Positions 1 through 22,851 of a stretch of DNA of 39,118 bases are shown here, piece by piece. This DNA is from Escherichia phage KKE5P, in sequence record PQ356293.1. One strand, 5' to 3'. Position numbers and translations under genes: made by a program. The number at the start of each line of letters is the position of its first letter. Positions within the stretch are counted from its first letter, which is position 1. Below the pieces are notes generated by a model that was given only the letters and a program-made list of their open reading frames with translations, was not told the origin of the DNA and did not search any database.

Positions 1-127
1 ATCCTCAAGAATCTGACGGGCCTTAGCGTGGTCACAGCAGCGGTGCCAAATCTCTTCCTCCCATGAGGCATCAAACTCAGCAGCACTCATCGCTTGGAAG
101 ACCAGCCAGTCTCCGTCCATCACGAGG
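1..127. repeat. Exact duplicate of 38992..39118 (window-end overlap from a circularised or concatemeric representation)
   Basis: Direct base-by-base comparison: window 1..127 matches 38992..39118; the repeat lies inside gene 6 coding sequence. Confidence 0.9.
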
Positions 128-4824: not shown

Positions 4825-6543
<1,719 letters not shown>

Positions 6544-6575: not shown

Positions 6576-6598
6576 TCTCCCTTTAGTGAGTTCAATTA
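6576..6598 (-). promoter_or_regulatory. T7-RNAP promoter phi3.8
   Basis: Promoter-sense taattgaactcactaaagggaga followed by ccacaacggtttccc leader also seen at phi10. Confidence 0.8.
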
Positions 6599-6599
6599 A

Positions 6600-8606: not shown

Positions 8607-8656
8607 AATGTTAATCTCCTTTAGGTTTCGTTTGGTTTCTCAAAAGGGAGTCTTCC

Positions 8657-8676
8657 CTCCCTAATAGTGAGTCGTA

Positions 8677-8679
<3 letters not shown>
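8657..8679 (-). promoter_or_regulatory. T7-RNAP promoter phi2.5
   Basis: Promoter-sense taatacgactcactattagggag (T at -1 as in T7 phi2.5). Confidence 0.8.
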
Positions 8680-8984
<305 letters not shown>

Positions 8985-8995
<11 letters not shown>

Positions 8996-9302
8996 AGCAC
9001 TTGTCCTTATGTTTCTCGTACAGTTCGCCATAGAACCCAGCCTTCGCCATGTCCTTCTCTAAGTAAGCCAGTTCGGATTTCTTACCAGCCCGTAGGCGAT
9101 ACTTTAAGATGTTCCCAAAGCAATACCCCTTGAACTGCTCACGGGTCATCGAACGGGCAATCACTTCGATAGCCTCAATGTCGTCGAACAGGATGTAGTG
9201 GCTTGGAGTACGGACACCAGCTATATCTTGTGGTTTGTTGACTACAGGCTCACAGGTGTGTGGGTATCTGCCGTCATTCTCTAAACACGCCATGCAGACC
9301 AT
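8985..9302 (-). CDS. 1.7: gp1.7-like protein, shortened (105 aa vs about 196 aa in T7)
   Basis: N-terminal CxxC and C-terminal SHYILFDDIEAIEVIARSMTREQFKGYCFGNILKYRLRAGKKSELAYLEKD match T7 gp1.7 ends; middle region missing. Confidence 0.7.
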
Positions 9303-9562
9303 CAGAACACCTCCTTGATTCGTTTGAGTAACAGACGGACGAACGGGAAGTGGGTCACTTCCACGCTAAGAACCGGACGTTTCTTGTCTATTGCTTTCTC
9401 GAAGTCACCACGAGTGATGATGATGTGTACGCTCGGTGACAAAAGAACTGTGTCACCAATAAGAGGTAACTTAGCTCGGCGTTCGCTCGCACACACGATT
9501 GAACGGTCAGCACGGCGAACCGTGAAATTCTTAAGACTTTTGTTGAAATGCAGTCGAAACAT
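9302..9562 (-). CDS. 1.6: gp1.6, 86 aa
   Basis: [39 protein letters not shown]...; directly downstream of phi1.6. Confidence 0.8.
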
Positions 9563-9567
9563 ATAGT

Positions 9568-9590
9568 GTCTCCTTTAGTGAGTCGTATTA
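9568..9590 (-). promoter_or_regulatory. T7-RNAP promoter phi1.6
   Basis: Promoter-sense taatacgactcactaaaggagac. Confidence 0.85.
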
Positions 9591-9677
9591 AGCGTGACCA
9601 TCTGGCATATCATCATCGCTATAATGGAGCGCAAGGCATCCGACGATGATGATTAGTAGTGGCATTAAGTACATCAT
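9588..9677 (-). CDS. 1.5: gp1.5, 29 aa
   Basis: Hand translation MMYLMPLLIIIVGCLALHYSDDDMPDGHA between phi1.5 and phi1.6. Confidence 0.55.
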   Translation of the reverse strand: MMYLMPLLIIIVGCLALHYSDDDMPDGHA

Positions 9678-9684
9678 AAGGTGT

Positions 9685-9707
9685 ATCTCCTATAGTGAGT
9701 CGTATTA
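9685..9707 (-). promoter_or_regulatory. T7-RNAP promoter phi1.5
   Basis: Promoter-sense taatacgactcactataggagat. Confidence 0.85.
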
Positions 9708-9708
9708 A

Positions 9709-9737
9709 ACGCAGAAAGGCCCACCTTTCGGTGAGCC
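9709..9737 (-). terminator. Early terminator TE for host RNA polymerase
   Basis: Phage-sense hairpin ggcucaccgaaaggugggcc followed by uuucugcg, immediately after ligase stop. Confidence 0.7.
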
Positions 9738-9744
9738 AGTGTGA

Positions 9745-10836
9745 TTACATTTTCTCTTGAGGGTTGTCCTCGGTGCCACGGAACATTACGAACGATGGGT
9801 GACGCAGAGAACCATCGGGTGTTTCCTCCATGTAGCTGATTTGGCAAGCGTAGCTGTTGTACGGGTTGATGTCGTCCAGCGATTCCATACCGCACTCCTC
9901 GCGCTCAACGTCAGTCATGCAGTGGTTCCATACGTACATCCGTTCTTCGATAACCTTGGCGGTGAACTCGTCCATTAAGGCGCGAGAGATGTTTGTGGCG
10001 TTAACTACACGACCACTCTCAAGAAGCACCTCAAAACCAATCACTTTACCTTCATTAGCCAGACCTTTTGTACCCCATACCAGACCCTGAATGATTCCGT
10101 CAGCTTCGTTTTCAGGTTTCATTTTCCACCAGCCGGACTTCTTACCGCGCTTATAGATACACATCGGGTCTTTCACAATGAGACCCTCATGCCCTTCCGC
10201 TCGCTTCTGCTCGTACAGTTGCTGTAGTTCTACCATGTCGTAGACCTCGTAAGACTCAGCCGCTTGCCATTCGATTTCTGGAAAGTATTCCTGTAGCAGA
10301 GGCAGCATGTTCTTAACGTGTTCCTGCATGAGCAACGTCATGACATCGCAGTCTTCTCCAGACTCCACGAGGTGCAGTGGTAGGATAGCGTACAGTTTGA
10401 CTTGGAGTTTTGCGGCGTGTAAGTTGAACGGAACTTTATCTTTCTTACGGACTGGTTCAACGAATAACACTTCATGGAACTCTTGGTTCTTAGTGTCTGT
10501 CCATTTGGTGCGCAGTAGGCCAGACCCTGCGTTGAAGTCTACACCTTTGACCATGAGTTCCCCATCAAGCATAAAGCCATCCTTGTAGAAGCAACGGTCA
10601 TCGCTCAGTAAACGCTTCCAGCGAACATCGAATCCGTTTAAGTGCTCCAGTGCCGGAATCGTTTTAGATACACGAGAGAGCCAGCAACTGTTAGCAGTAT
10701 TGTCTACGCAGATGTTCCCACGCACACCATCGTACTTAATGTCAGCGATAAGATACCCAGCGTTATCCAGAGCTTTCTTAATGGAAGACTCTGCGAAAGA
10801 TGTTGCTTTAAACGGGTTGGTCTTAATGTTCATCAT
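9745..10836 (-). CDS. 1.3: ATP-dependent DNA ligase gp1.3, 363 aa
   Basis: MMNIKTNPFKATSFAESSIKKALDNAGYLIADIKYDGVRGNICVD... with KYDGVRG adenylation motif. Confidence 0.97.
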   Translation of the reverse strand: MMNIKTNPFKATSFAESSIKKALDNAGYLIADIKYDGVRGNICVDNTANSCWLSRVSKTIPALEHLNGFDVRWKRLLSDDRCFYKDGFMLDGELMVKGVDFNAGSGLLRTKWTDTKNQEFHEVLFVEPVRKKDKVPFNLHAAKLQVKLYAILPLHLVESGEDCDVMTLLMQEHVKNMLPLLQEYFPEIEWQAAESYEVYDMVELQQLYEQKRAEGHEGLIVKDPMCIYKRGKKSGWWKMKPENEADGIIQGLVWGTKGLANEGKVIGFEVLLESGRVVNATNISRALMDEFTAKVIEERMYVWNHCMTDVEREECGMESLDDINPYNSYACQISYMEETPDGSLRHPSFVMFRGTEDNPQEKM

Positions 10837-10859
10837 AGTGTTTATCTCCGTGTTTTGGT

Positions 10860-10897
10860 TAAATGACTAAGGCCACTCAATGAGCGACCTTAAGCAT
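10860..10897 (-). promoter_or_regulatory. RNase III processing hairpin (R1.3-like)
   Basis: taaggccactcaatgagcgaccttaag imperfect inverted repeat upstream of ligase. Confidence 0.5.
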
Positions 10898-10920
10898 TGT
10901 CCCTATACTGAGTCGTATTA
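10898..10920 (-). promoter_or_regulatory. T7-RNAP promoter phi1.3
   Basis: Promoter-sense taatacgactcagtatagggaca (characteristic G at -5). Confidence 0.85.
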
Positions 10921-11175
10921 CTTCCAGTCCTTCAACTGGTCGTACATATGGTTCAACCAAGCGGTTCCCATGTTGTACAATACGTCTTCATCGCGATGGA
11001 AGAATGTTCTGGAGTCAATCATGTTCCCAGTACGGTCTTCAATCCGAAGGTGCATGGTCTCCTTTATGTTTGGTGAACCTTCCTGCTCAACAACTATAAC
11101 AGCAAGGTCCAACTGGTAGAGCCTGTTGCAAGCAGCTTTGAGGTCATTCAGATTCCCACTGTATAAGCGTCCCAT
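10918..11175 (-). CDS. 1.2: gp1.2 (dGTPase inhibitor), 85 aa
   Basis: MGRLYSGNLNDLKAACNRLYQLDLAVIVVEQEGSPNIKETMHLRIEDRTGN... Confidence 0.9.
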   Translation of the reverse strand: MGRLYSGNLNDLKAACNRLYQLDLAVIVVEQEGSPNIKETMHLRIEDRTGNMIDSRTFFHRDEDVLYNMGTAWLNHMYDQLKDWK

Positions 11176-11176
11176 C

Positions 11177-11305
11177 TTACTGGCCCTCCCAGCTACGCTT
11201 ATGTGAGCGGTCGCGCTTGGTCTTATTCAACTTGCGACCTTTGGTTGCCTCGAAGTCATGAGCGTTACGGTTAGAACGTTTGGTCATCTTTTCGAAGTTA
11301 CGCAT
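11177..11305 (-). CDS. 1.1: gp1.1, 42 aa basic protein
   Basis: Hand translation MRNFEKMTKRSNRNAHDFEATKGRKLNKTKRDRSHKRSWEGQ. Confidence 0.65.
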   Translation of the reverse strand: MRNFEKMTKRSNRNAHDFEATKGRKLNKTKRDRSHKRSWEGQ

Positions 11306-11383
11306 ACTTAAAATCCTCTATTAGTAATTCTTTAATTTAAATCTCTAATTAACACTTAAGGGTCTTAAAGTTAAACCTTAAGG
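11306..11383 (-). other. AT-rich region adjacent to phi1.1A/phi1.1B (likely primary replication origin element)
   Basis: AT-rich stretch ttaaaatcctctattagtaattctttaatttaaatctctaattaa; by analogy to the T7 primary origin. Confidence 0.4.
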
Positions 11384-11406
11384 TTCTCCTATAGTGAGTC
11401 GTATTA
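11384..11406 (-). promoter_or_regulatory. T7-RNAP promoter phi1.1B
   Basis: Promoter-sense taatacgactcactataggagaa. Confidence 0.85.
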
Positions 11407-11458
11407 ACCGGAAGAAGGTCAACCATAAAGGCCACTCTTGCGAATGACCTTGAGTTTG
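11407..11458 (-). promoter_or_regulatory. RNase III processing hairpin (R1.1-like)
   Basis: accataaaggccactcttgcgaatgaccttgagtttg between the two 1.1 promoters. Confidence 0.55.
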
Positions 11459-11481
11459 TCCCTCTATAGTGAGTCGTATTA
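11459..11481 (-). promoter_or_regulatory. T7-RNAP promoter phi1.1A
   Basis: Promoter-sense taatacgactcactatagaggga. Confidence 0.85.
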
Positions 11482-11489
11482 ATTTGACG

Positions 11490-14141
11490 TTACGCGAACG
11501 CGAAGTCTGACTTAAGGATGTCTTGGAGGTTCAAGTTACCTTTAGCCGGAAGTGCTGGCATTTTGTCCAATTGAGACTCATGCAACTGGTCAGCGAACTG
11601 GTCGTAGAAGTCAGCCAGTACATCGCAGGACTCGTAGGTGTCAACCATAGTTTCGCGCACAGCTTTGAACAGGTTGGCAGCGTCAGCAGGAATTGTCCCG
11701 AAGGAGTCATGAATAAGTGCAAACGATTCGATTCCGTACTTCTCGTGTGCCCACACTACAGTCTTACGCAGGTGGCTACCATCTTGACTATGCACAAAGT
11801 TAGGAGCAATACCAGACTCCTGTTTGTGTGCGTCAATCTCGCTATCTTTGTTGGTGTTAATGGTCGGCTGTAGACGGAACTGACCGAGGAACATCAGGTT
11901 CAAGCGAGTCTGAATGGGCTTCTTGTATTCCTGCCACACAGGGAAACCATCAGGAGTTACCCAATGCACCGCGCAACGCTTGCGTAGAATCTCCCCAGTA
12001 TTCTTATCTTTGACCTCAGCAGCCAGCAGCTTAGCAGCAGACTTGAGCCAGTTCATTGCCTCCACAGCGGCTACCACAGTCACGCTCACAGATTCCCAAA
12101 TCAGTTTCGCCATGTATCCAGCAGCCTGATTCGGTTGCGTGAACATCAGACCCTTACCGGAATCGATGGCTGGCTGAATGGTATCTTCCAGCACTTGTTG
12201 GCGGAATCCGAACTCTTTGGAACCATAGGCCAGCGTCATGACTGAACGCTTAGTGACGCTACGAGTAACACCGTAAGCCAGCCACTGACCAGCCAGAGCC
12301 TTAGTGCCCAGCTTGACTTTCTCAGAGATTTCCCCAGTGTTCTCGTCGGTCACAGTAACTACTTCGTTGTCGGTCCCGTTGATTGCATCTGCTTGTAGAA
12401 TCTCATTGACTTTCTTAGCGACAATCCCGTAGATGTCCTGTACGGTTTCGCTAGGCAGTAAGTTAACTGCACGACCGCCCACCTCATCACGGAGCATCGC
12501 GGAGAAGTGTTGAATACCAGAGCAAGACCCGTCGAACGCCAGAGGCAGCGAGCAGTTGTAGCTCAGGCCGTGATGTTGCACCCCAGCGTACTCAAAGCAG
12601 AACGCAAGGAAGCAGAACGGAGAATCTTGCTCAGCCCACCAAGTGTTCTCAAGTGGAGACTTAGCGCAAGCCATGATGTTCTCGTGGTTGTCCTCAATGA
12701 ACTTGATGCGCTCAGGGAACGGAACCTTATCGACACCAGCGCAGTTTGCACCGTGGATTTTCAGCCAGTAGTAACCCTCCTTGCCGATTGGTTTACCTTT
12801 AGCCAGCGTCAGCAGACCCTTGGTCATGTCGTTACCTTGCGGGTTGAACATTGACACAGCATAAACACGACCGCGCCAGTCCATGTTGTAAGGGAACCAG
12901 ATGGCCTTATGGTTAGCGAACTTGTTGGCTTGCTCAAGCATGAACTCAAGGCTGATACGGCGAGACTTGCGTGCCTTGTCTTTGCGGTATACGGCAGCGG
13001 CAGCACGTTTCCAAGCGGTGAGCGCCTCAGGATTCGTGTCGATGTCTTCCGGTTTCATCGGGAGTTCTTCGCGTTCAATCGCTGGGATGTCTTCGACTGG
13101 GCAGTGCTTCCACTTGGTGATTACGTTGGCGACCGCTAGAACTTTCTTGTTGATTTTCCAAGCGGTGTTTTGCGCAATGTTAATCGCTTTGTACACCTCA
13201 GGCATGTAAACGTCTTCGTAGCGCATCAGTGCTTTCTTGCTGTGAGTGCGCACCAGCGCCAGAGGACGGCGACCGTTAGCCCAATATCCACCCCCAGTAA
13301 TACCAGTCCAAGGCTTAGGAGGAACTACGCAAGGTTGGAACATCGGAGAGATACCAGCCAGTGCCCCAGCGCGAGTAGCGATAGCCTCAGCGTATTCAGG
13401 CGCGAGTTCGATAGTCTCAGAGTCTTGGCCCACTACGCCAGCGTTTTGGCGGTGCAAGTTAACCATTCCGGTTGACTCAATGAGCATCTCAATGCAGCGC
13501 ACGCCTACGTGAATGGAGTCCTCCTTGTGCCACGAAGACCACGCCTCGCCACCCATCAGACCCTTAGAGAGCATATCAGCTTCGACAACCTGCATGAATG
13601 CTTTCTTGTAGACGTGTCCTACTCGCTTGTTGAGTTGTTCCTCAACGTTTTTCTTGAAGTGCTTAGCTTCAAGGTCACGGATTCGACCAAAGCGCGCCTC
13701 ATCCTCAATGGCCCGACCGATTGCGCTTGCTACAGCCTGAACGGTTGTATTGTCTGCACTGGTTAGACAAGCAAGGGTGGTCTTGATGGTGATGTACGCT
13801 ACCGCTTCCGGCTTGATTTCTTGCAGGAACTGGAAGGCTGTCGGGCGTTTGCCGCGCTTAGCTTTCACTTCCTCAAACCAATCGTTGATGCGTGCAATCA
13901 TCTTAGGGAGAAGGGTAGTAATGAGAGGCTTAGCGGCAGAGTTATCCGCAACCTCACCAGCTTTAAGTTGACGCTCAAACATCTTGCGGAAGCGTTCTTC
14001 ACCCATCTCGTAAGACTCATGCTCAAGGGCCAACTGTTCGCGAGCCAAACGCTCACCGTAGTGGTCAGCCAGAGTGTTGAACGGAATAGCAGCAAGTTCG
14101 ATGTCAGAGAAGTCGTTCTTAGCGATGTTAATCGTGTTCAT
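11490..14141 (-). CDS. 1: Single-subunit DNA-dependent RNA polymerase gp1, 883 aa
   Basis: Near-identical from memory to T7 RNAP along full length (MNTINIAKNDFSDIELAAIPFNTLADHYGERLAREQLALEHESYEMGE... to ...SDFAFA). Confidence 0.99.
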   Translation of the reverse strand: MNTINIAKNDFSDIELAAIPFNTLADHYGERLAREQLALEHESYEMGEERFRKMFERQLKAGEVADNSAAKPLITTLLPKMIARINDWFEEVKAKRGKRPTAFQFLQEIKPEAVAYITIKTTLACLTSADNTTVQAVASAIGRAIEDEARFGRIRDLEAKHFKKNVEEQLNKRVGHVYKKAFMQVVEADMLSKGLMGGEAWSSWHKEDSIHVGVRCIEMLIESTGMVNLHRQNAGVVGQDSETIELAPEYAEAIATRAGALAGISPMFQPCVVPPKPWTGITGGGYWANGRRPLALVRTHSKKALMRYEDVYMPEVYKAINIAQNTAWKINKKVLAVANVITKWKHCPVEDIPAIEREELPMKPEDIDTNPEALTAWKRAAAAVYRKDKARKSRRISLEFMLEQANKFANHKAIWFPYNMDWRGRVYAVSMFNPQGNDMTKGLLTLAKGKPIGKEGYYWLKIHGANCAGVDKVPFPERIKFIEDNHENIMACAKSPLENTWWAEQDSPFCFLAFCFEYAGVQHHGLSYNCSLPLAFDGSCSGIQHFSAMLRDEVGGRAVNLLPSETVQDIYGIVAKKVNEILQADAINGTDNEVVTVTDENTGEISEKVKLGTKALAGQWLAYGVTRSVTKRSVMTLAYGSKEFGFRQQVLEDTIQPAIDSGKGLMFTQPNQAAGYMAKLIWESVSVTVVAAVEAMNWLKSAAKLLAAEVKDKNTGEILRKRCAVHWVTPDGFPVWQEYKKPIQTRLNLMFLGQFRLQPTINTNKDSEIDAHKQESGIAPNFVHSQDGSHLRKTVVWAHEKYGIESFALIHDSFGTIPADAANLFKAVRETMVDTYESCDVLADFYDQFADQLHESQLDKMPALPAKGNLNLQDILKSDFAFA

Positions 14142-14159
14142 TTAGTGCCTCTTCCAATT

Positions 14160-14212
14160 AATAAATCGTATCTATTCAGGCCACCCGTAGATGACCTGTA
14201 AGATAAGACTAT
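14160..14212 (-). promoter_or_regulatory. RNase III processing hairpin (R1-like) upstream of gene 1
   Basis: Phage-sense ttatcttacaggtcatctacgggtggcctgaatag. Confidence 0.55.
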
Positions 14213-15291
14213 CAGCCCATAAACATTGCGTCAAGTTTCTTATCGATGTTAAGTGCGCGACCACCAGCGATAGCCATTCTGTCAACGTTGTGCCAATGCG
14301 CTGCAATTCGTTCCTCAAGAGCCTTAAAGTCCATAGCGAACATATTGTCGCAGAGCATAGCGATATTGGTCCATCCCATTACATTCACAGCCACCTCATG
14401 GTTACGAAGTTCTTGGCGCTCAGCCATGCGCAACTCAGCAAGCATTCTCTTGCGTTTCGCTTGGTGTGCTTTACGTGCCTTACGGTTACGGCGCTTTACT
14501 TTGCGTGCCTCCAATCGGCCCACATGACGTGCCTTACGTTCCTTAGCGCGGTCGATTACTTTCTGTCGTGCGGCCTCCTCGACTTCCCTAATGAGTTCCT
14601 CAGGGTCAATGCTGAATGCGCCACCGTCTTTCTTCTGAGAGAATGACACAGGGTCGGTAATGTACGGTACATCGTTATCATCGAACATGATGTTGCCACT
14701 GTGCATGTCAAACGATGCGATTCCCTCAAAGAACTTGCGGATTAGCTTGCAAGTCTCGACGAACTCGCCATCCCATCCAGTTAACCCATCGTGCGCACCT
14801 GATTTGTAGTCAATGATGTCTCTTGCAATCTCAGCATACTTCTCGTGAGTGTCATTACCCCACGATTCACAGTCGTTGAGCGCATCCAGCACCACCGTAT
14901 AGCATCCAGCGTGGCGCTGTACATCGTAGACGTTAGGGATACCAGCGCGACCCTGATACATGCGGCAGAATGCGGTATATGCAGCGCCTGAGTCCTCTTT
15001 CTTAAAGCCCACCTTAATCACTCTGTTAGGCAGCAGCGGGTGTCTATAAGCAGCCGAGAAGTGACCATTACCGAGCATCTTAAACCCTGCGTCAGCCGTG
15101 AGACACTTCAAGGTAGTCCACCAATCTTGGTGCTCAAGTGCCTGATTCAGTTCGGTTAACTCCCCATCGCATGTTTCGCTGTTGACCATCTCGACCAGCA
15201 AGTCGATGAGCATACCTTGGCGCTTGTTAAGTTCACAGATTGGCAGTGCTTTGATTGCGTCGATAGCGTTCATGATGTCGGTGATGTTCAC
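14212..15291 (-). CDS. 0.7: Protein kinase / host shut-off protein gp0.7, about 359 aa (apparent GTG start)
   Basis: (V)[49 protein letters not shown]...; T7-type start aligns to GTG at 15289..15291 with GGAGA upstream. Confidence 0.85.
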
Positions 15292-15310
15292 TTTGTGTAT
15301 TCTCCAAATG

Positions 15311-15448
15311 TTAGATGTTGTTGAGCTTGCGGTTAGTGCGTAGTTCACGCTTAAGGCGTTCGATTCGCTGTTTCATTGCGAACCCATCAGGCGTGCATAC
15401 AGTTGCCCCGTTGGGCGTGTGGATAGGCATAACGTAGTGTTTCAGCAT
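15311..15448 (-). CDS. Small early protein, 45 aa (gene 0.6-position)
   Basis: Hand translation [45 protein letters not shown]; assignment by position only. Confidence 0.45.
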
Positions 15449-15576
15449 TTGCGTAGTGCCCCCGTTACGATGCAAGCGACCAAGTAAGCGCCTACAGCCA
15501 CACCTAAAGCCTTCCCAAAGGATGCACCTACAGCTAGACCAAGAGCGGTTAGCAGACCGATAGTAAGCATAGACAT
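15442..15576 (-). CDS. Small hydrophobic early protein, 44 aa (gene 0.5-position)
   Basis: [44 protein letters not shown] after GAGGGA SD; track ORF 15442..15684 trimmed. Confidence 0.5.
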   Translation of the reverse strand: MSMLTIGLLTALGLAVGASFGKALGVAVGAYLVACIVTGALRKC

Positions 15577-15590
15577 TACTCCCTCGTAAG

Positions 15591-15647
15591 TAAAGTGATA
15601 ATCATAAAGGCCACTCATTAGGAGCGACCTTGAGTTTACCACTTGGT
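15591..15647 (-). promoter_or_regulatory. RNase III-type processing hairpin, copy A
   Basis: Contains agtgataatcataaaggccactc, a 23-nt string repeated exactly at 15889..15911. Confidence 0.5.
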
Positions 15648-15664
15648 AGACTTGAAGCCTGTTG

Positions 15665-15865
15665 TCAATCGTTCCAACCCGCACATGTTGCTTGGTGTAT
15701 CACACAGGCTTGATACTCCTCTTGCGCTAAAATCGGGTTCACCCAAAATGTGACCTGTTTGCCGTATCGCACAACGTAGGAGCATCCCATTGACCCGTGG
15801 TAATACTCACGCAGCGTTACAGTGCATTGGCCTTTGATTTTAGATGTTGCCAGAAGTTTACTCAT
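15665..15865 (-). CDS. Hypothetical early protein, 66 aa (MSKLLATSKIKGQCTVTLREYYHGSMGCSYVV...)
   Basis: ATG at 15863..15865; lies between two near-identical RNase III-type hairpins; track ORF 15665..15937 trimmed. Confidence 0.5.
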   Translation of the reverse strand: MSKLLATSKIKGQCTVTLREYYHGSMGCSYVVRYGKQVTFWVNPILAQEEYQACVIHQATCAGWND

Positions 15866-15886
15866 GGTGTTAGTCCTATAGCGTGT

Positions 15887-15940
15887 TAAGTGATAATCAT
15901 AAAGGCCACTCGCATGGAGCGACCTTGAGCCTATCACTCA
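15887..15940 (-). promoter_or_regulatory. RNase III-type processing hairpin, copy B
   Basis: gtgataatcataaaggccactcgcatggagcgaccttgagcctatcac; paralogous to copy A. Confidence 0.5.
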
Positions 15941-16086
15941 GCAGACTCCAAGGCAATAGCCTTGTTGTTTTCGTACAGTTCCTTGAGGTGTTCCATTGCG
16001 AGCGACCAGTTAAAGCCACAGCGCACCATATCGCTATAGAACAGTACAGTTTGAGCGGTCAGACCATATTGCACGTTGTTAGCCAT
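15934..16086 (-). CDS. 0.4: gp0.4, 50 aa
   Basis: Hand translation [50 protein letters not shown]; start overlaps ocr stop (TAATG). Confidence 0.65.
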   Translation of the reverse strand: MANNVQYGLTAQTVLFYSDMVRCGFNWSLAMEHLKELYENNKAIALESAE

Positions 16087-16490
16087 TACTCTTCATCCTC
16101 CTCATGGCCTTCCTCTTCCTCGACTTCCTCAGGGCACTCGTTCAGCAAGTCCTCGACTTCCTCGACTTCCTCAAGGTACTCGTTCAGCAAGTCCTCAGCG
16201 TCTTCCCAGAGGTCAATCGTGAGTTGCTCATAGATACGTGCTTGCAGGATACGGATTACGTCCTTGGTGTCCGGCATCAGACCAGAGTCTTCGAACTCAA
16301 GGTCAATGCCCTCGCTTGCCATTACATTGAAAACGTCACTGTAATAGTGCGGAACGGCGTTATCGGCAGCATCATGAATAGCATCGTGCAGGTCATCAGT
16401 GTCGCGGATGTCATCATAACGGATGTTTTCTTTCAGCATTTCGTAAGCGTGGTCGAAAACGTTGCGATAAGTCATGTTAGACATAGACAT
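16086..16490 (-). CDS. 0.3: Ocr, DNA-mimic anti-restriction protein gp0.3, 134 aa (extended acidic tail)
   Basis: [50 protein letters not shown]... matches T7 Ocr; about 17 aa longer at C-terminus. Confidence 0.9.
16121..16197. repeat. Tandem duplication (period 42 bp) inside the ocr 3' end
   Basis: cgacttcctcagggcactcgttcagcaagtcct at 16121..16153 recurs with two substitutions at 16163..16195. Confidence 0.8.
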
Positions 16491-16510
16491 TTGTGTTACC
16501 TCGTGCAGTT

Positions 16511-16560
16511 GTTAGTGAATATCATAAAGGGCACCTTGCGATACCCTTGAGTTATCCGCT
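16511..16560 (-). promoter_or_regulatory. RNase III processing hairpin (R0.3-like)
   Basis: gtgaatatcataaagggcaccttgcgatacccttgagttatc upstream of ocr. Confidence 0.5.
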
Positions 16561-16757
16561 AGTCATGCACTCAAGAGTTATTTACCAGATTGTTAAAGAA
16601 CTTTAGGCTACAGTTTCGTCGAGCCGAGGCTATTTCAGTGTTAGCCGTCACTTGCATTATAAGTGCGACAAGCTCTTTATTATCGTGGTCGCTTGTGCTT
16701 TCGCCATCTATCCACTATGTCGCGTTTTTACACCTACGACACTCGGTGTCTTTCATG

Positions 16758-16798
16758 TGGTACATCGTACCGTGTTTACTTCTTGTTGTCAACCGTTT
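16758..16798 (-). promoter_or_regulatory. Host sigma70 early promoter A3
   Basis: Phage-sense TTGACA (-35) and TACGAT (-10) with 17-bp spacer. Confidence 0.6.
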
Positions 16799-16867
16799 TG
16801 TTTCACCTTATGTGCCGTGGTGCGCTTAAGTCACCTAGAAGACACCGTTTGTCCGGCTGACGTTACG

Positions 16868-16908
16868 TTGTGTATCTTACTGCATGTTACTTCTTGTTGT
16901 CAATGCCT
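16868..16908 (-). promoter_or_regulatory. Host sigma70 early promoter A2
   Basis: Phage-sense TTGACA (-35) and TAAGAT (-10). Confidence 0.6.
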
Positions 16909-16994
16909 GTTTTTCGTATGACTTATCAGGCTGTCTACTTATCCGGTTGACTCCGGTATCTCAGGGAGTGGCTTTAAGGCCGTTGTCCCGTTGA

Positions 16995-17035
16995 CGTGAT
17001 GAATAGTAAACGGTAGGACTCTTTAAGTCAATACT
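16995..17035 (-). promoter_or_regulatory. Host sigma70 early promoter A1
   Basis: Phage-sense TTGACT (-35) and TACTAT (-10) with 17-bp spacer. Confidence 0.6.
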
Positions 17036-17085
17036 CTTTTTAAAATTCTTTAATTTCTCCCCCTTTAAGGCCTCTTTAAGTAGTC

Positions 17086-17108
17086 TCTCCCTATAGTGAG
17101 TTGTATTA
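17086..17108 (-). promoter_or_regulatory. T7-RNAP promoter phiOL
   Basis: Promoter-sense taatacaactcactatagggaga. Confidence 0.75.
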
Positions 17109-17109
17109 A

Positions 17110-17330
17110 AGACAATGATTAAAGGTGTCTCTTTATAGGTAACAACAAGGCGTCTTTAGGTATGGTCTTTAGGTATGGTCTTTAGGTGGAGTCTTTAGAA
17201 GATACTTTAAGATGGGGATTGACTGAATGGGTCTTTAGGTGTAGTCTTTAGGATGTAGGCGGTAGGAATGACTTTAGGAGGTGACTTTAGGAGGATACTT
17301 TAGGAGACTGAACAGATAGGGACACAGAGA
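17110..17330. repeat. Array of about 10 CCTAAAG (plus-strand CTTTAGG) heptamers at about 11-12 bp spacing, left-end side
   Basis: Repeated ctttagg in gtctttaggtatggtctttaggtatggtctttaggtggagtctttag... Confidence 0.7.
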
Positions 17331-17487
17331 GACACTCAAGGTAACACCCAAAGGGACAACTCAAGGTAAACCATAAGGCCATCCCAACCCTTAGGGAACC
17401 CTCAAGGTCAACTGAAAGTTGACTCAAGGTGATTGGCTGGGCTTAAGGGACCCCTATGGGGGAACTTTGGGTTCTTAAACTGTGAGA
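17328..17487. repeat. Probable direct terminal repeat (single collapsed copy); physical left end near 17487
   Basis: RC of 17480..17487 is TCTCACAG, the T7 left-terminal sequence; downstream about 85 percent similar to T7 bases 1-200 from memory; length by analogy. Confidence 0.5.
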
Positions 17488-17489
17488 TA

Positions 17490-17660
17490 GTCACTCAGAT
17501 TTTTATGGTATATTTTAAAGGGCCCTCTAGGAACTCCTCAGGCCCTCTCTAGGACCCTCTTTAGGTGACACTGATAGGATGGCCTATCTTTAGGTATAGA
17601 CCTTACGGATAGACCATTAGAGGCTCTTTATGGGTATACTTTAGGACTTGACTCTATAGG
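17490..17660. repeat. Heptamer-like repeats (ctttagg / ctctagg) on the right-end side of the terminal repeat
   Basis: ccctctaggaactcctcaggccctctctaggaccctctttaggtgacac... Confidence 0.55.
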
Positions 17661-17727
17661 GATGAAGTGGTGTGATGCAATCATACCGCTGAATCCCTCG
17701 GTGAGCCATCAGTCGGTCAGGAAGACC

Positions 17728-17877
17728 CTAATCACTACAAGTGAGTATAGAGCAAACGGTAGACTCCAGTGAACTGAGGTCTCCAGTAAGAGATGCGTAC
17801 CCAAGGGCAGCACAAAGTACCACAAGAAAGCGGTAGGTGACTCTATGCCGCAGTAGGTTCAACAATAAGCGGAACAT
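17728..17877 (-). CDS. 19.5: gp19.5, 49 aa
   Basis: Hand translation MFRLLLNLLRHRVTYRFLVVLCAALGYASLTGDLSSLESTVCSILTCSD. Confidence 0.6.
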   Translation of the reverse strand: MFRLLLNLLRHRVTYRFLVVLCAALGYASLTGDLSSLESTVCSILTCSD

Positions 17878-18031
17878 GAGTCTCCTCCCTTTATGTTGGA
17901 CTTTAAGTTAAGGTGATATTAATACAATATAATCACCATTCTTAGAGGACACTTTAGGTACACCACTATGCATACTTTATGCACTCTATAAGTATTCATT
18001 CAGTATCTATATAGTAACCTTTCGTCCCTCC

Positions 18032-18054
18032 TCTCCCTATAGTGAGTCGTATTA
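18032..18054 (-). promoter_or_regulatory. T7-RNAP promoter phiOR
   Basis: Promoter-sense taatacgactcactatagggaga (exact consensus). Confidence 0.85.
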
Positions 18055-18135
18055 ATTTATCGTGTCTTTTCAGTAACTTAAGGAACTGACCATCCATGGT
18101 CTATAATGCATCCCTATGCAGTCCTAATGCATAAA

Positions 18136-19896
18136 TCACCACTCAATGAAAGACGTACCGTAGCCCTCATCGTCCTCAGAGTACACATCAACTCCTCCTA
18201 CAGACATCTCAATGATATGCGTAGCGGCAACCGTAGGACGCATCATGTGTTCCTCAAGGAAGTCAGCAAGCACTTCACCTTCGACCTTAACGGAATCCAA
18301 CTGCATGGACTCACGGAGATACTCAATGCCTAACGCAAGGGCATCCAATCGGTCATCATGTGCCAGAGCGCCTTTCTCACGAGTGATACGGGTCATCTGG
18401 TAGAACAGTGAGTACTTAACGTCATGCTTACCGTCTACGTCACGAGCGGACTGATAGTCTGCCCTAATGACCTCATCACGAATGACAAGGCGGTGAGTCT
18501 GCATGACTGGCTCAAGGGTATCACAAATACGCATCTCCTTCATACCACGAGCACGAATCTCTTCCATCGCACAGTTGTGGTGTTTAAGGAGGATAGGACT
18601 GAATACCTTACCAAACATACCATCACCGAAGTTACTCTCGTAGACAACCGTCTGGACTCCCCATTGCTTAGCTTTCTTGGCGAGCGACTCAAGGGTCTTA
18701 TCGGAGTAACCATCACGGAAACCTCCAGCTTCCATTAGGTAGATGTAACCGTTGAGGGTGTACAGCACAGCGTAACCTGTTTCATCCTTACCACGACCAC
18801 TTGGGTCAATGACCAGAATCTTCTGTTGATACTGACCAGAGTTGTTGGAGCAGTCGTGATAGGTATGCAGGTCATCACCCTTAAGGCCCACGTTAGGAAG
18901 GTCCTCAATGATGTTCTGACGGTTCGGAAGCCACTGGTAATGCATTGGTGCCTTCTCTAAGTCTAAGGCCGCTACTATAGCGTCACGGAGCCTCAGAGGG
19001 TACTTCTCGGCATCACTCAGGTTCGGGTTAAGCATGAACTGTAGCGTAAAGCCAGCCTTACCGTATTCCAATTCACGCTCACGTAGGTCATCACGGTCGA
19101 ATCGCACAGGGTCTGTTGGAGTACCAGCCAGAGCCTCAGGATTCTCCTCGTACTCCGCACGGAGCATTGGTGCCAGACGCTGAGAGTAGTAGAGGTTCTC
19201 TTCGCGTGTCCTTGGGTATAGAGCAGGCCAGATGATAGTGGTGTACCCACGGTTATCTTCAAGTTCCTTATAGAGAGTCATCTCAGTCTGAGGTGTTCCA
19301 AGGTAGATAACACGAGAAGTTGGCAATGGTTTAAGTAACGCAGCGAACTCCTGAACGAGAGTCCATAGCTTCTCACGGGCACCCATAGTAGCACTGTTAG
19401 ACGGAATCTCAACGTCATCAGCGATGATAATGTCAGCACGGCTACCAGTTAACTGACCAGTGATACCTACCGATTTCACACTAGGAGAGTGGTCAGGCTT
19501 AGCTGGGCCAACGTCAAAGCTGATTACAGAGTCACGCTGTCCGGGTCTCGGCTTCAACTCACTGAGAAACGGTAGAAGGTCAATGATGTTCTTGATGAAG
19601 ATGGAGTTAGCGTCTGCACGTTCCTTAGAAGCTGATACGATAAGTATCTTCAACTGAGGGTCTCTCCATAAGGACCACACAACGAACGCACAAGTGATGA
19701 ACGACTTACCGATACCACGGAAAGCCTGTAGGATGAACTTCTTGTTGTCTCCATTCGCCAGACATCGGGCCATGTCAATTTGACACTTAGTCGGCGGCGG
19801 GAGAGCAAGAGCCTTCCACAATACGAACAGGAACGCCACGAAGTCGCCCTTTAGTTGCGCCACAACGAGCGCATTACGATTGGCCTGAGTAGACAC
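18136..19896 (-). CDS. 19: Terminase large subunit gp19, 586 aa (apparent GTG start)
   Basis: (M)[65 protein letters not shown]...; first codon at 19894..19896 is GTG after AAGGAGGT. Confidence 0.97.
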
Positions 19897-19905
19897 ATTA
19901 CCTCC

Positions 19906-20349
19906 TTACTTGATTTCCTGCTTGCGTTGTAGTTCACGAATAGTATCCTGTAACGCACGAATCCACGCGTCACCCTTCTGTGTCACTGCGATAATACGTT
20001 TAGCATCTCGGTCGTCAAGTTCGGCTCGACCATCAGGCTCGAATCCACACTGACCATCGGAGGTTCCGGTAGTCTTGATTCTGACGCGCAACCGCTTATT
20101 GTCGCTACGCAAATCAGAAATAATCCTATCAGTGCTCCCTTCCAGCGCGGCAAGGTCTTCTTGATACTTAGCCGATATTTCATTGATTGCTCTTTGAGTG
20201 CTCGCTGTAGCCTCAACTCTCTTAACGTACTCATTCTGTACCTCCTGTTTCCACTTGGCGTCCATTGAGTCTGACCCTAGATGCCATCCTAATCCGAATA
20301 GCATCCCAGCGAGAACCCAAGGGACTAGCTTACGTAAAAATTGCAGCAT
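19906..20349 (-). CDS. 18.5: gp18.5 inner-membrane spanin (Rz-like), 147 aa
   Basis: MLQFLRKLVPWVLAGMLFGLGWHLGSDSMDAKWKQEV... with N-terminal TM segment. Confidence 0.9.
   Translation of the reverse strand: MLQFLRKLVPWVLAGMLFGLGWHLGSDSMDAKWKQEVQNEYVKRVEATASTQRAINEISAKYQEDLAALEGSTDRIISDLRSDNKRLRVRIKTTGTSDGQCGFEPDGRAELDDRDAKRIIAVTQKGDAWIRALQDTIRELQRKQEIK
19983..20234 (-). CDS. 18.7: gp18.7 outer-membrane lipoprotein spanin (Rz1-like), embedded in 18.5 in another frame
   Basis: Lipobox-like TISGC and proline-rich tail; embedded +1 frame arrangement. Confidence 0.75.
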   Translation of the reverse strand: MSTLRELRLQRALKEQSMKYRLSIKKTLPRWKGALIGLFLICVATISGCASESRLPEPPMVSVDSSLMVEPNLTTEMLNVLSQ

Positions 20350-20404
20350 AATGCCTCCCGTTAACTTTCAGATTTCACGTAGGAGCATCTCGTGTAGACA
20401 ATGA

Positions 20405-20452
20405 CATCCATAAAGACCACTATAGGTAGTGGCCTTGAGTATATCACTGTAA
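20405..20452 (-). promoter_or_regulatory. RNase III processing hairpin (R18.5-like)
   Basis: ccataaagaccactataggtagtggccttgagtatatcactg. Confidence 0.55.
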
Positions 20453-20713
20453 AGTATAAACATCGTCATCAGTCAGACCATTCTCGCCGACTTTCTCTTT
20501 GTACTCTTCAAGAGCACCAGCAAGGCTGCCCAAGATGTTAACATCAGGCTGCAACTTACCAATCTGGAACTTGTGGCGGTCTAACAGTTTGTTGATGGCG
20601 TTGTAGAGTTGCGGGGTCCGACGCTCGTCGTTGGCTAAATCAGCAAGCATACGCTGAGCCATCGCAGTGTCCAACATCTCTAAGAACGCAATGAGGCTCT
20701 TATCTTTTTCCAT
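20444..20713 (-). CDS. 18: Terminase small subunit gp18, 89 aa
   Basis: MEKDKSLIAFLEMLDTAMAQRMLADLANDERRTPQLYNAINKLLDRHKFQ... Confidence 0.9.
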   Translation of the reverse strand: MEKDKSLIAFLEMLDTAMAQRMLADLANDERRTPQLYNAINKLLDRHKFQIGKLQPDVNILGSLAGALEEYKEKVGENGLTDDDVYTLQ

Positions 20714-20716
20714 ATA

Positions 20717-20920
20717 TCACTCCTTATTGGCTTTCTTCCAGTCAATAATCTTATCGACTACCTTGGCACCAATCTGAACCACTGTGTAGGCGATAGCTGC
20801 AACGTAGAACCACTCATTAAGACTCAGCCCGAAGAAAAGCCGAGCAGCGCCATCAGCCACACCCGTGCCAACAATAGGTGCAGCCTTGACTAACTCATTA
20901 TTAAAATCTAAAGACAGCAT
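20717..20920 (-). CDS. 17.5: Holin gp17.5, 67 aa
   Basis: MLSLDFNNELVKAAPIVGTGVADGAARLFFGLSLNEWFYVAAIAYTVVQIGAKVVDKIIDWKKANKE. Confidence 0.9.
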   Translation of the reverse strand: MLSLDFNNELVKAAPIVGTGVADGAARLFFGLSLNEWFYVAAIAYTVVQIGAKVVDKIIDWKKANKE

Positions 20921-20973
20921 GTATCGTCTCCTTTATTTAAAATATGGACATTCCGTTGTCCTGCTCGTGTTCC

Positions 20974-22851
20974 TTACGTTTGTGGGTAGTCACACACTAC
21001 GTCAATATAGTTGATTGCCTGTACTCCAGAACCTGTAGCCGCTACTAGTTTAACTTGATTCGCCGCAGGGAACTCTAAGGTGTACGACCAGTTAGCTAGA
21101 GTGATGTGCATTCGGTCAGCAGTGTTTGGCTGGAGGAACGGGCTACAACGGTATACCTGAGAGTTGGGGTTTTGGCTATCGGTGTGTGCGCCAATTACTA
21201 GCATCTTGTTGAGAATATCCTCAGAGCAAGTCACTGTTCTTCCAGTCGCAAGTTGTCCTTGAGACGTGCGGTCGCTAAACACTCGGCGAAGGAACTTCTG
21301 TCCAGACTTCTCGAGGTTCTCATTAGTAACCATACGTGTAAGTAGTTCGGTATAAACCTGCTCGACGCGAGAAGCCAACACAGCGGCATCCACTGAACCC
21401 GGATTGTTGACAACACCGTGAGTCCTGATAACCCAGACAATCACGATGCCATTCATACGGGCTTCATTAATGTCCTTCTTGTAGACGTCGTTCCACAGTG
21501 ACGCGTCGAAACCTAACTGAGCACCACCGGTATCGTTAGTTGCACCTTTGTTGGAGCGCCCAGCGTTGTAGAATGCACCAGAGGCACTGGAGGCCAGCTC
21601 ATTATCGGCAAGTGTAATCAGACCCTCAATGTTTGGTAGAGCTGACTTCTGAACGTCACCTACAGTAAACCCAGCGTCACCACGGAACACAGGAGCCTTA
21701 ATGGAACCCGCATAGACACCGTTTAGGTCTGGTACACGGAAAGTGGTCGTACCGTTACCTAAGGTATAGCAACCACGTTTACCGGGGTCAGCAAGCCATA
21801 CGTCGTCAGAGACAACCGGGAGGTGCCCTGCCAGTAACTCAGCGACTAGTGCAGGGAACTGGTTGCGGTTCAATAGTTGCCCGTCACCGTATACTGTACC
21901 CGGCTTAGCGTAAGTACGAGAGTTGTGAATCTCAAACTCACCAACCTGACGTACGGCCACGCCGTTAATCCGGTCAACCAGAGTGTTAAACTGAATTAGC
22001 TTATCGGATTCAGTCTTTGCACTACTTGCAGATGTCGCAGCGTTGCTCTCAGATACAGCGGCCTGTTGAGCAGACGTGTTGGCTGCATCGCGGTAACCCA
22101 GAGCATCATTGGCGTAATCACCAGCACGGTCAGCCTGTGCCTTAGCGTTCGCTACTTGTGCCTGAGAGTTACCCGCAGAGATTGCAGACGCATTAGCGCT
22201 TTCCTCAGAGGTCAACGCCCAATGCTTAGCGGAATACTGATTGGGGACCACGGGTGTACCTTTAGGGTTCTCAGCCCACTTCTTCGCCAACTGCTCGGAA
22301 GCCTTTGAGTTTGTCTCAGAGGTCTTAGCGTTATTCTCAGAAGTCTTCGCTTTGTTCGCACTATCGGCGGCACTACCAGACCAGCGATTCATCTGACCAA
22401 CCGTAACAGCGTCACCGGGGTCAATGCCATCCGCTACATTCACCACACGTCTACCACGCGCATCTAGATGACCATCGTTGTTTACACCTATAGTGTCAGA
22501 CGTTAAATCTCGCGCCTCTTCTGCCACATGCATAGTCTGAATCTGGGCCACGTTAAGGTCATACGCACGGAGGATAGAGCCATCTGTAAAGTCAACCAAT
22601 CGGTCGGTAGTGGATGTAACCCGCCGTACCTCGATGGTTTCATAGCTATCAGCCGGACCCCAAGCCTTAGTTAGGGATATGGTTGTTCGAGTAGCGAATC
22701 GGTAGTCTGCATTGATGGTAAGCACTTTACGGTCCTTACCAATAAGAGTTACCACTACGAACTTACGGGCCAGATACTCAAACGGGATATTAAAATCACG
22801 AGTTGAGCCATCTAACGGGTAAGTCAAAACGGTCTTAATTACGTTAGCCAT
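20974..22851 (-). CDS. 17: Tail fibre gp17, 625 aa (T7-like N-terminal domain, divergent shaft and distal domain)
   Basis: N-terminus MANVIKTVLTYPLDGSTRDFNIPFEYLARKFVVVTLIG... matches T7 gp17; beyond about residue 165 it differs from T7 as recalled. Confidence 0.9.
   Translation of the reverse strand: MANVIKTVLTYPLDGSTRDFNIPFEYLARKFVVVTLIGKDRKVLTINADYRFATRTTISLTKAWGPADSYETIEVRRVTSTTDRLVDFTDGSILRAYDLNVAQIQTMHVAEEARDLTSDTIGVNNDGHLDARGRRVVNVADGIDPGDAVTVGQMNRWSGSAADSANKAKTSENNAKTSETNSKASEQLAKKWAENPKGTPVVPNQYSAKHWALTSEESANASAISAGNSQAQVANAKAQADRAGDYANDALGYRDAANTSAQQAAVSESNAATSASSAKTESDKLIQFNTLVDRINGVAVRQVGEFEIHNSRTYAKPGTVYGDGQLLNRNQFPALVAELLAGHLPVVSDDVWLADPGKRGCYTLGNGTTTFRVPDLNGVYAGSIKAPVFRGDAGFTVGDVQKSALPNIEGLITLADNELASSASGAFYNAGRSNKGATNDTGGAQLGFDASLWNDVYKKDINEARMNGIVIVWVIRTHGVVNNPGSVDAAVLASRVEQVYTELLTRMVTNENLEKSGQKFLRRVFSDRTSQGQLATGRTVTCSEDILNKMLVIGAHTDSQNPNSQVYRCSPFLQPNTADRMHITLANWSYTLEFPAANQVKLVAATGSGVQAINYIDVVCDYPQT

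What the first reader, a model, noticed from the sequence alone, without database searches (positions are those of the whole stretch)
17110..17660. Physical genome ends and concatemer-junction repeats lie mid-window
Around 17480..17487 the minus strand reads TCTCACAG followed by sequence about 85 percent similar to the T7 left terminal repeat as recalled, with CCTAAAG heptamer arrays on both sides. The terminal repeat appears once, so the linear ends were collapsed into a circle or concatemer junction. Annotation and any packaging inference should use about 17487 as the genome boundary, not the window edges.
Basis: partly seen in the sequence, partly recalled or inferred. Interest (0 to 1): 0.4.

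Follow-up and report, generated by a model that had tools for sequence, protein, structure and literature searches.

The report
Collapsed T7-type terminal repeat mid-contig
The window is a complete T7-like phage genome that the assembler closed into a circle and cut open at an arbitrary point, so the phage's true linear ends and its single collapsed 170-bp terminal repeat sit mid-window; this is an ordinary, well-known situation.

Summary

- **Layout.** On the minus strand, the T7 right end (36345-39937) aligns to window 20919..17318. The T7 left end (1-766) aligns to 17487..16741. The two share one 170-bp segment, 17487..17318, which is a single terminal-repeat (TR) copy in the concatemer-junction arrangement.
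- **Left boundary.** TCTCACAG occurs once in the window, at 17487..17480 (-).
- **TR identity.** The TR is 84% identical to the T7 TR and 87-90% identical to those of 13a, pO111 and PHB19.
- **Right boundary.** The TR is therefore 170 bp, as in phage 13a.
- **Pause signal.** ATCTGTT, the T7 RNA polymerase class II pause signal, follows directly at 17317..17311. It is the only copy on the coding strand, as in T7.
- **Heptamers.** CCTAAAG arrays flank the TR: 8 exact copies on the left-end side and 3 on the right-end side.
- **Window edges.** They are artificial. Bases 1-127 equal 38992-39118 and lie inside gene 6.
- **Length.** The predicted virion DNA is 39,161 bp.

The physical ends are inferred from homology and were not measured. 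This is a new member of a known kind, of low interest.

The parts
17318..17487 (-). Single copy of the direct terminal repeat (170 bp). The genome's left end is base 17487, reading towards lower coordinates. The right end is base 17318.
   Evidence: It aligns to T7 1-160 and to T7 39778-39937. Identity is 84.3% to T7, 87.3% to 13a (TR 170 bp), 89.1% to pO111 and 89.7% to PHB19. The record ends of T7, 13a, pO111 and SYGE1 coincide with these two bases.
17480..17487 (-). TCTCACAG, the conserved first eight bases of the T7-type left end.
   Evidence: Unique in the window. Identical to the first bases of T7 and 13a.
17311..17317 (-). ATCTGTT, the class II pause/termination signal for T7 RNA polymerase at the concatemer junction (CJ). 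It lies immediately after the last base of the repeat.
   Evidence: It is the only ATCTGTT on the coding strand of the window. T7 likewise has a single one, at position 161. GTGTCCCT|ATCTGTT is also conserved in T3 at 231|232 and in 6 of 7 collapsed viral contigs. Motif and role are described in bioRxiv 10.1101/2021.01.11.426313 and PMC3276506.
17131..17304 (-). Heptamer array on the left-end side: 8 exact CCTAAAG plus CTTAAAG, TCTAAAG and TATAAAG, many at 13-nt spacing.
   Evidence: Aligns with the T7 and 13a arrays at about 170-340.
17559..17645 (-). Heptamer array on the right-end side: 3 exact CCTAAAG plus CATAAAG.
   Evidence: Aligns with T7 39671-39706 and its neighbourhood.
17488..17558 (-). 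Unique right-end sequence that abuts the repeat (...TTTAAAATATACCATAAAAATCTGAGTGACTA). It is nearly invariant among relatives.
   Evidence: The 29-mer spanning this segment and TCTCACAG is found exactly in 16 viral contigs.
17658..17698 (-). Imperfect inverted repeat (19-nt arms, 3-nt loop) with its centre about 190 bp left of the repeat. Candidate for the hairpin-forming site described for T7 concatemer processing.
   Evidence: I1. DNA fold -10.5 kcal/mol, z = -2.2. Identical sequence in T7 at 39568-39608. The link to the published hairpin rests on my recollection of Chung, Nardone and Hinkle 1990 and was not verified here.
17728..17877 (-). Gene 19.5, the last gene before the right end.
   Evidence: 49 of 50 codons identical to T7 gp19.5.
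18032..18054 (-). phiOR, a T7-type promoter reading towards the right end and across the junction in concatemers.
   Evidence: Exact 23-nt T7 consensus. T7 phiOR +1 (39229) maps to 18037.
17086..17108 (-). phiOL, a T7-type promoter next to the left end.
   Evidence: One mismatch to the consensus. T7 phiOL +1 (405) maps to 17091.
16764..17031 (-). Early host-polymerase promoters A1, A2 and A3 (17031-17003, 16903-16874, 16792-16764).
   Evidence: Sigma-70 scan. T7 A1 +1 maps to 16995 and A3 +1 to 16756.
18136..19896 (-). Gene 19, large terminase subunit (trans-acting).
   Evidence: 586 aa, 98.5% identical to T7 gp19.
20444..20713 (-). Gene 18, small terminase subunit (trans-acting).
   Evidence: 89 aa, 89.9% identical to T7 gp18.
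11490..14141 (-). Gene 1, T7-type RNA polymerase, which pauses at the CJ signal.
   Evidence: 883 aa, 99.0% identical to T7 RNAP. Residues 165-185 are identical.
1..127 (.). Assembler overlap. Bases 1-127 are identical to 38992-39118 and mark the artificial opening point of a circular contig inside gene 6.
   Evidence: Both copies map to the same T7 coordinates, 17566-17692.

Best explanation
The window is the whole genome of a T7-like phage (genus Teseptimavirus). It is given as the reverse complement and opened at an arbitrary point inside gene 6.

The virion DNA is linear, with a 170-bp direct terminal repeat at each end. Because the two copies are identical, the assembler merged them. The contig therefore closed into a circle of 38,991 unique bases, printed with a 127-nt overlap.

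As a result, the right-end unique sequence, one repeat copy and the left-end unique sequence lie side by side at about 17700..17100. This is the same arrangement as a concatemer junction in replicating DNA.

The true left end is base 17487 (minus strand, TCTCACAG...). The true right end is base 17318 (...GTGTCCCT). The predicted virion length is 38,991 + 170 = 39,161 bp.

The mechanism is inferred from T7.
1. Replication gives head-to-tail concatemers joined through one repeat copy.
2. Phage RNA polymerase, transcribing rightward (for example from phiOR) with lysozyme bound, pauses at ATCTGTT just past the repeat.
3. The paused complex recruits terminase gp18/gp19.
4. The junction is cut at both borders of the repeat, and the repeat is duplicated by DNA synthesis, so every packaged genome carries two copies.

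The sequence layout is shown here. The physical ends and the processing steps are inferred.
For: - Collinearity: T7 36345-39937 matches window 20919..17318, and T7 1-766 matches 17487..16741. The two alignments overlap on one 170-bp segment (alignments).
- End points: the record ends of T7, 13a, pO111 and SYGE1 coincide with 17487 or 17318. In vB_YpYeO9 the match to window 17317 starts at record base 149, just after a 148-bp repeat.
- Boundary motif: GTGTCCCT|ATCTGTT is shared with T7 (160|161), 13a (TR annotated 1-170, 'concatemeric junction' 169-177) and T3 (231|232).
- The repeat occurs once. The window termini are an exact 127-nt overlap inside single-copy gene 6.
- Positive control: the T7 assembly OZ035731 has exactly the collapsed junction mid-record.
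- In IMG/VR, 7 of 16 contigs with the junction 29-mer continue past the repeat. In 6 of those, CCCT|ATCTGTT lies 144-174 nt after TCTCACAG.
- Trans-acting proteins are present and nearly identical to those of T7: gp19 98.5%, gp18 89.9%, RNAP 99.0%, lysozyme 146 of 151 residues.
- Literature: short-read assemblers place or delete these repeats mid-contig, and concatemers hold one copy (PMC10438801). [quoted passage not shown] ATCTGTT is the class II signal.
Against: - No reads, coverage profile or virion DNA were available, so the physical ends are inferred from homology alone.
- The repeat is only 84-90% identical to any repeat with determined ends. It carries a 12-nt insertion relative to T7 and four changes in its first 25 nt, so a shift of a cut site by a few bases cannot be excluded.
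- The same contig would arise from intracellular concatemeric DNA.
Confidence: 0.9

Rival explanations
1. The contig was assembled from replicating intracellular DNA, for example in a metagenome or an infected culture. The junction would then be a real concatemer junction molecule and not two virion ends merged by the assembler.
For: A concatemer junction and a collapsed repeat have identical sequence, and the layout at 17700..17100 fits both. The source of the window is unknown.
Against: It changes nothing about where the ends are or how they work, because the virion would still be cut at 17487 and 17318. Collapse of virion repeats by short-read assemblers is documented and common (PMC10438801; OZ035731).
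Confidence: 0.15
2. The ends of this phage are not at the homologous positions. The terminal repeat would then be shorter or longer than 170 bp, for example the 160 bp assumed by the first reader with its boundary near 17328.
For: Repeat length varies among relatives: 144-174 nt in viral contigs, 148, 160, 170 and 173 bp in isolates and 231 bp in T3. The repeat here differs from T7 by a 12-nt insertion.
Against: In every relative with deposited ends, the length varies through internal insertions and deletions, while the two boundary motifs stay fixed: TCTCACAG first...CCCT last, followed by ATCTGTT. Both motifs are intact here. A boundary at 17328 would fall inside the conserved GTGTCTCTCTGTGTCCCT.
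Confidence: 0.07
3. The genome is truly circular or circularly permuted (headful packaging), with no fixed ends.
For: The contig closes on itself with a 127-nt overlap.
Against: The overlap lies inside single-copy gene 6 and has the form of a k-mer join. The terminase is 98.5% identical to T7 gp19, and all cis elements of the T7 junction are present in order. T7-group phages package unit-length DNA with fixed ends (PMC10438801).
Confidence: 0.01

Closest known systems
Terminal repeat and concatemer junction of Escherichia phage T7 (NC_001604; TR 160 bp)
   Same: The order of elements is the same: gene 19, phiOR, gene 19.5, heptamer array, TR, ATCTGTT pause signal, heptamer array, phiOL, A1-A3. 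The first eight bases (TCTCACAG) and the last bases (GTGTCCCT) of the repeat are the same. ATCTGTT is unique on the coding strand directly after the repeat in both.
   Different: The repeat is 170 bp instead of 160 bp, through a 12-nt insertion, and 84.3% identical. The three CCTAAAG copies inside the T7 repeat are all changed here (CCCAAAG, CCTTAAG, CCTTGAG). The left-side heptamer array is shorter by one 14-nt block.
Terminal repeat of Escherichia phage 13a (EU734174; TR 170 bp, annotated 'concatemeric junction' 169-177)
   Same: Same repeat length (170 bp), same insertion relative to T7, same boundaries. 87.3% identical.
   Different: Sequence differences are spread through the repeat. 13a has one more heptamer unit after the repeat.
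Escherichia phages pO111 (OR204652) and vB_EcoP_PHB19 (MN481365)
   Same: They have the closest repeat sequences found, 89.1% and 89.7% identical over 173 bp. The pO111 record ends exactly at the base homologous to 17318.
   Different: Still about 10% divergent. PHB19 carries the repeat inside the record (350-522), so it is another collapsed or permuted assembly.
Circularly closed short-read assemblies of T7-like phages, e.g. OZ035731 (T7, 39,778 bp), Salmonella phage C2, CICC 80001
   Same: One repeat copy flanked by right-end and left-end unique DNA in the middle of the record. The artefact is described in PMC10438801.
   Different: None in kind. This window additionally keeps the 127-nt assembler overlap at its edges.

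Membership tests
T7-type direct terminal repeat / concatemer junction (Teseptimavirus) | One side of the repeat is homologous to the unique right end, and the other side to the unique left end, of phages whose ends were determined. | tested here: met
   T7 36345-39937 aligns to 20919..17318 and T7 1-766 to 17487..16741. Three-way alignments with T7 and 13a.
T7-type direct terminal repeat / concatemer junction (Teseptimavirus) | Conserved end motifs: the repeat starts with TCTCACAG and ends with ...GTCCCT. | tested here: met
   17487..17480 is TCTCACAG and 17325..17318 is GTGTCCCT. Both are identical to the T7 termini, and the record ends of 13a, pO111 and SYGE1 fall at the same bases.
T7-type direct terminal repeat / concatemer junction (Teseptimavirus) | The class II RNA polymerase pause signal ATCTGTT lies immediately after the repeat in the junction. 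| tested here: met
   17317..17311. It is the only copy on the coding strand, as in T7 at 161, and it is also found in T3 at 232.
T7-type direct terminal repeat / concatemer junction (Teseptimavirus) | Arrays of CCTAAAG-type heptamers flank the repeat on both sides. | tested here: met
   8 exact copies at 17304..17154 and 3 at 17645..17559. The window holds 23 copies against 4.4 expected.
T7-type direct terminal repeat / concatemer junction (Teseptimavirus) | T7-type packaging and processing proteins are encoded: gp18, gp19, single-subunit RNA polymerase and lysozyme. | tested here: met
   Identity to the T7 proteins is 89.9%, 98.5%, 99.0% and 146 of 151 residues.
T7-type direct terminal repeat / concatemer junction (Teseptimavirus) | The repeat is physically present at both ends of linear virion DNA (fixed termini, doubled read coverage). 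| not testable with these tools
   No reads or virion DNA were available. This is inferred from homology only.
T7-type direct terminal repeat / concatemer junction (Teseptimavirus) | RNA polymerase actually pauses at the junction and terminase cuts there. | not testable with these tools
   This needs in vitro transcription and packaging assays. Only the sequence signals are shown.
Circular contig produced by a de Bruijn-graph assembler | The first and last k bases of the contig overlap exactly, the overlapped stretch is single-copy in relatives, and gene order continues across the join. | tested here: met
   The overlap is exactly 127 nt and not 128. Both copies map to T7 17566-17692 inside gene 6, and collinearity continues across the join.

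The most novel reading that the evidence does not exclude
The repeat of this phage is a natural variant. All three CCTAAAG heptamers found inside the T7 repeat are lost, and the first 25 bases are as close to T3 as to T7, while the terminase is 98.5% T7-like. If its ends are formed normally, the heptamers inside the repeat and the exact sequence just inside the left end are dispensable for recognition by T7 terminase. If they are not, the cut sites or the packaging specificity have shifted.
Probability: 0.1. Interest if true: 0.25.

Novelty: new member of a known kind. Interest (0 to 1): 0.1.

Why it matters
The value is practical and not conceptual.

- The genome should be reoriented (reverse complement) and should start at 17487.
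- The 127-nt edge overlap should be removed, and a second 170-bp repeat copy should be added at the right end. That gives a 39,161-bp linear genome.
- The 127-nt overlap must not be mistaken for the phage's terminal repeat.
- No gene should be called across 17318-17487.
- The packaging class should be recorded as T7-type short direct terminal repeats.

The phage has no relative at 95% identity or more in the phage collection, so it is probably a new species. Its ends work like those of T7.

Tried and rejected
- An exact 41-mer from the start of the repeat found nothing in IMG/VR, so the source contig and identical relatives were not located. A more conserved 29-mer across the right-unique/repeat border gave 16 contigs, and those were used instead.
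- Literature searches for the heptamer CCTAAAG found no paper in the held library that prints it. The names and functions of the flanking arrays therefore rest on the T7 and 13a alignments and on my general knowledge.
- Searches failed on input format and gave no data.
- My first coordinates for gene 19.5 were one base off and gave a nonsense translation. This was corrected.
- I considered that the 127-nt terminal duplication might be a real repeat. It was rejected because both copies map to one single-copy stretch of gene 6.
- I considered a truly circular or headful-packaged genome. It was rejected on the terminase identity and the complete set of T7 junction elements.
- The inverted repeat at 17658-17698 folds only modestly better than shuffles (z = -2.2). 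It lies in a stretch that is conserved throughout, so conservation alone does not single it out. Its link to the published T7 hairpin intermediate is my recollection and was not tested.

Full report
**What is in the sequence**

Read on the minus strand, the region runs through the following elements in order:
- the stop of a 586-aa ORF (18136)
- a perfect T7-type promoter (18054..18032)
- a 49-codon ORF (17877..17728)
- a short array of CCTAAAG heptamers (17645..17559)
- a 70-nt conserved stretch ending ...AAAATCTGAGTGACTA
- TCTCACAG at 17487..17480
- 170 nt ending ...GTGTCTCTCTGTGTCCCT at 17318
- ATCTGTT at 17317..17311
- a longer heptamer array (17304..17131)
- a second T7-type promoter (17108..17086)
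- three sigma-70 promoters (17031-17003, 16903-16874, 16792-16764)

TCTCACAG occurs only once in the window. CCTAAAG occurs 23 times against 4.4 +/- 2.0 in shuffles. Eleven of the 20 minus-strand copies fall in about 250 nt flanking the 170-nt segment, where 0.13 are expected (P about 1e-19).

**What it is**

The whole window is collinear with phage T7 in reverse-complement orientation.
- T7 36345-39937, the right end including the right terminal repeat, aligns to window 20919..17318.
- T7 1-766, the left end including the left terminal repeat, aligns to 17487..16741.
- The two alignments share exactly 17487..17318.

So the window holds one repeat copy, with right-end unique DNA on one side and left-end unique DNA on the other. 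This is the arrangement of a concatemer junction. No second copy exists. Three-way alignments with the T7 and 13a ends show the same picture base by base.

Identity of the 170-nt segment to other repeats:

| Phage repeat | Identity |
|---|---|
| T7 | 84.3% (145 of 172 columns) |
| 13a | 87.3% |
| pO111 | 89.1% |
| PHB19 | 89.7% |

**Where the ends are**

The deposited ends of T7 and 13a (left) begin at the base homologous to 17487. The deposited right ends of T7, 13a, pO111 and SYGE1 all stop at ...CCCT, homologous to 17318. In vB_YpYeO9 the match to window 17317 begins at record base 149, just after a 148-bp repeat.

Phage 13a has the same 12-nt insertion relative to T7. Its repeat is 170 bp at both ends.

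In T3, a different genus with a 231-bp repeat, the boundary is again GTGTCCCT|ATCTGTT.

Among 16 IMG/VR contigs that contain the 29-mer spanning the right-unique/repeat border, 7 continue into left-end DNA. In 6 of those, CCCT|ATCTGTT lies 144-174 nt after TCTCACAG.

Repeat length therefore varies through internal insertions and deletions, while both boundary motifs stay fixed. By homology the repeat here is 17487..17318, or 170 bp.

**Why the ends are mid-window**

Window bases 1-127 are identical to 38992-39118. The identity stops at exactly 127. Both copies map to the same single-copy stretch of T7 gene 6, 17566-17692. This is the signature of a circular path in a de Bruijn-graph assembly printed with a k-mer overlap. 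That k = 127 is a usual largest k-mer is my own knowledge.

The unique circle is 38,991 bp. Adding the second repeat copy gives a predicted virion DNA of 39,161 bp.

A direct control exists. The GenBank T7 assembly OZ035731 (39,778 bp) contains, at 3255-3414, exactly T7 right-unique + one repeat + left-unique, a 960 of 960 base match to that construct. Thirty-five phage records carry at least 80% of the 801-nt junction query in one place; among those listed, most hold it in the middle of the record.

PMC10438801 describes the same behaviour for T7-like phages. [quoted passage not shown]

**How it most likely works**

This part is inferred from T7. The trans-acting proteins are present and almost identical to those of T7:

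| Protein | Identity to T7 |
|---|---|
| gp19, large terminase | 98.5% |
| gp18, small terminase | 89.9% |
| RNA polymerase | 99.0% (residues 165-185 identical) |
| Lysozyme | 146 of 151 residues |

The cis elements keep the T7 order and spacing. [quoted passage not shown] It is found here once on the coding strand, directly after the repeat and preceded by T, exactly as in T7.

[quoted passage not shown] Plasmids need a T7 origin, the pac site and the terminal repeat to be packaged (PMC13236587, citing Chung and Hinkle 1990). The repeat must be duplicated during processing. Models invoke nicking plus strand displacement or a hairpin intermediate (PMC4281155).

An imperfect inverted repeat at 17698..17658 is identical to T7 39568-39608, with its centre 190 bp left of the repeat. 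From memory, this is about where the T7 hairpin end was mapped. I could not verify that here.

**What is shown and what is inferred**

- Shown: the sequence layout, the single repeat copy, the homology of both boundaries to determined ends, the artificial window edges, and the presence of all known cis and trans components.
- Inferred: that virion DNA of this phage really ends at 17487 and 17318, and that pausing, cutting and repeat duplication occur as in T7.

**Rivals**

- The contig could derive from intracellular concatemers. This gives the same sequence and does not change where the ends are.
- The cut sites could be shifted by a few bases. This is unlikely because both boundary motifs are intact.
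- A truly circular or headful-packaged genome is contradicted by the gene 6 position of the overlap and by the T7 terminase and junction elements.

**Comparison and novelty**

This is a T7-type terminal repeat and concatemer junction in every testable respect. The phage itself has no relative at 95% identity or more in the phage collection. The best matches are 94.0% over 91% of the late half and 91.8% over 91% of the early half. It is probably a new Teseptimavirus species.

Its repeat is a new sequence variant: 170 bp, no exact CCTAAAG inside, and a T3-like flavour in the first 25 nt. It is a new member of a known kind. The value is practical (correct reorientation, removal of the 127-nt overlap, restoration of the second repeat copy), and the interest is low.

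Noticed in passing
window 1-127 and 38992-39118: There is an exact 127-nt duplication at the two window edges, inside gene 6 (exonuclease). It is an assembler overlap that completeness tools could misread as the phage's direct terminal repeat. The real repeat is at 17318-17487.
   Followed up: yes
window 16086-16490 (-), tandem repeat 16115-16198: The Ocr-like gene 0.3 product is 134 aa against 117 aa in T7. A 42-nt tandem duplication adds 17 residues ([17 protein letters not shown]-like) to the acidic C-terminal tail. The rest is 110 of 117 identical.
   Followed up: partly
window 20974-22851 (-): The tail fibre gp17 is 625 aa against 553 aa in T7, with only 233 identical residues. Window 20919-22394 has no DNA match to T7, so the receptor-binding part has been exchanged and the host range probably differs.
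   Followed up: no
window 17318-17487 (-): The repeat contains no exact CCTAAAG, whereas the T7 repeat has three. The homologous sites read CCCAAAG, CCTTAAG and CCTTGAG. ACCTTGAG occurs four times. The first 25 nt differ from T3 at 3 positions and from T7 at 4.
   Followed up: partly
window 17658-17698 (-): An imperfect inverted repeat (19-nt arms, 3-nt loop, DNA fold z = -2.2) is identical to T7 39568-39608, with its centre 190 bp left of the repeat. It is a possible hairpin site in concatemer processing.
   Followed up: partly
window 15590-15657 and 15885-15952: A 68-nt direct repeat (81% identical) lies in the early region between the 0.3-like and 0.7-like genes. It may represent repeated RNase III-site-like or intergenic elements.
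   Followed up: no
L002 (EU734174 phage 13a, 38678-38841): The GenBank record annotates the right terminal repeat of 13a as 164 bp. The sequence is in fact repeated over 170 bp (38672-38841), matching the left annotation 1-170.
   Followed up: yes
L012 (IMGVR_UViG_2706796247_000001, phage CICC 80001): This collapsed-junction contig has TCTCACAG but no ATCTGTT within 400 nt after it. The six other collapsed contigs all have it.
   Followed up: no
whole window: No phage record reaches 95% identity over either half of the genome. The best are 94.0% (IME390, late half) and 91.8% (vB_YpYeO9, early half). This is probably a new Teseptimavirus species.
   Followed up: partly
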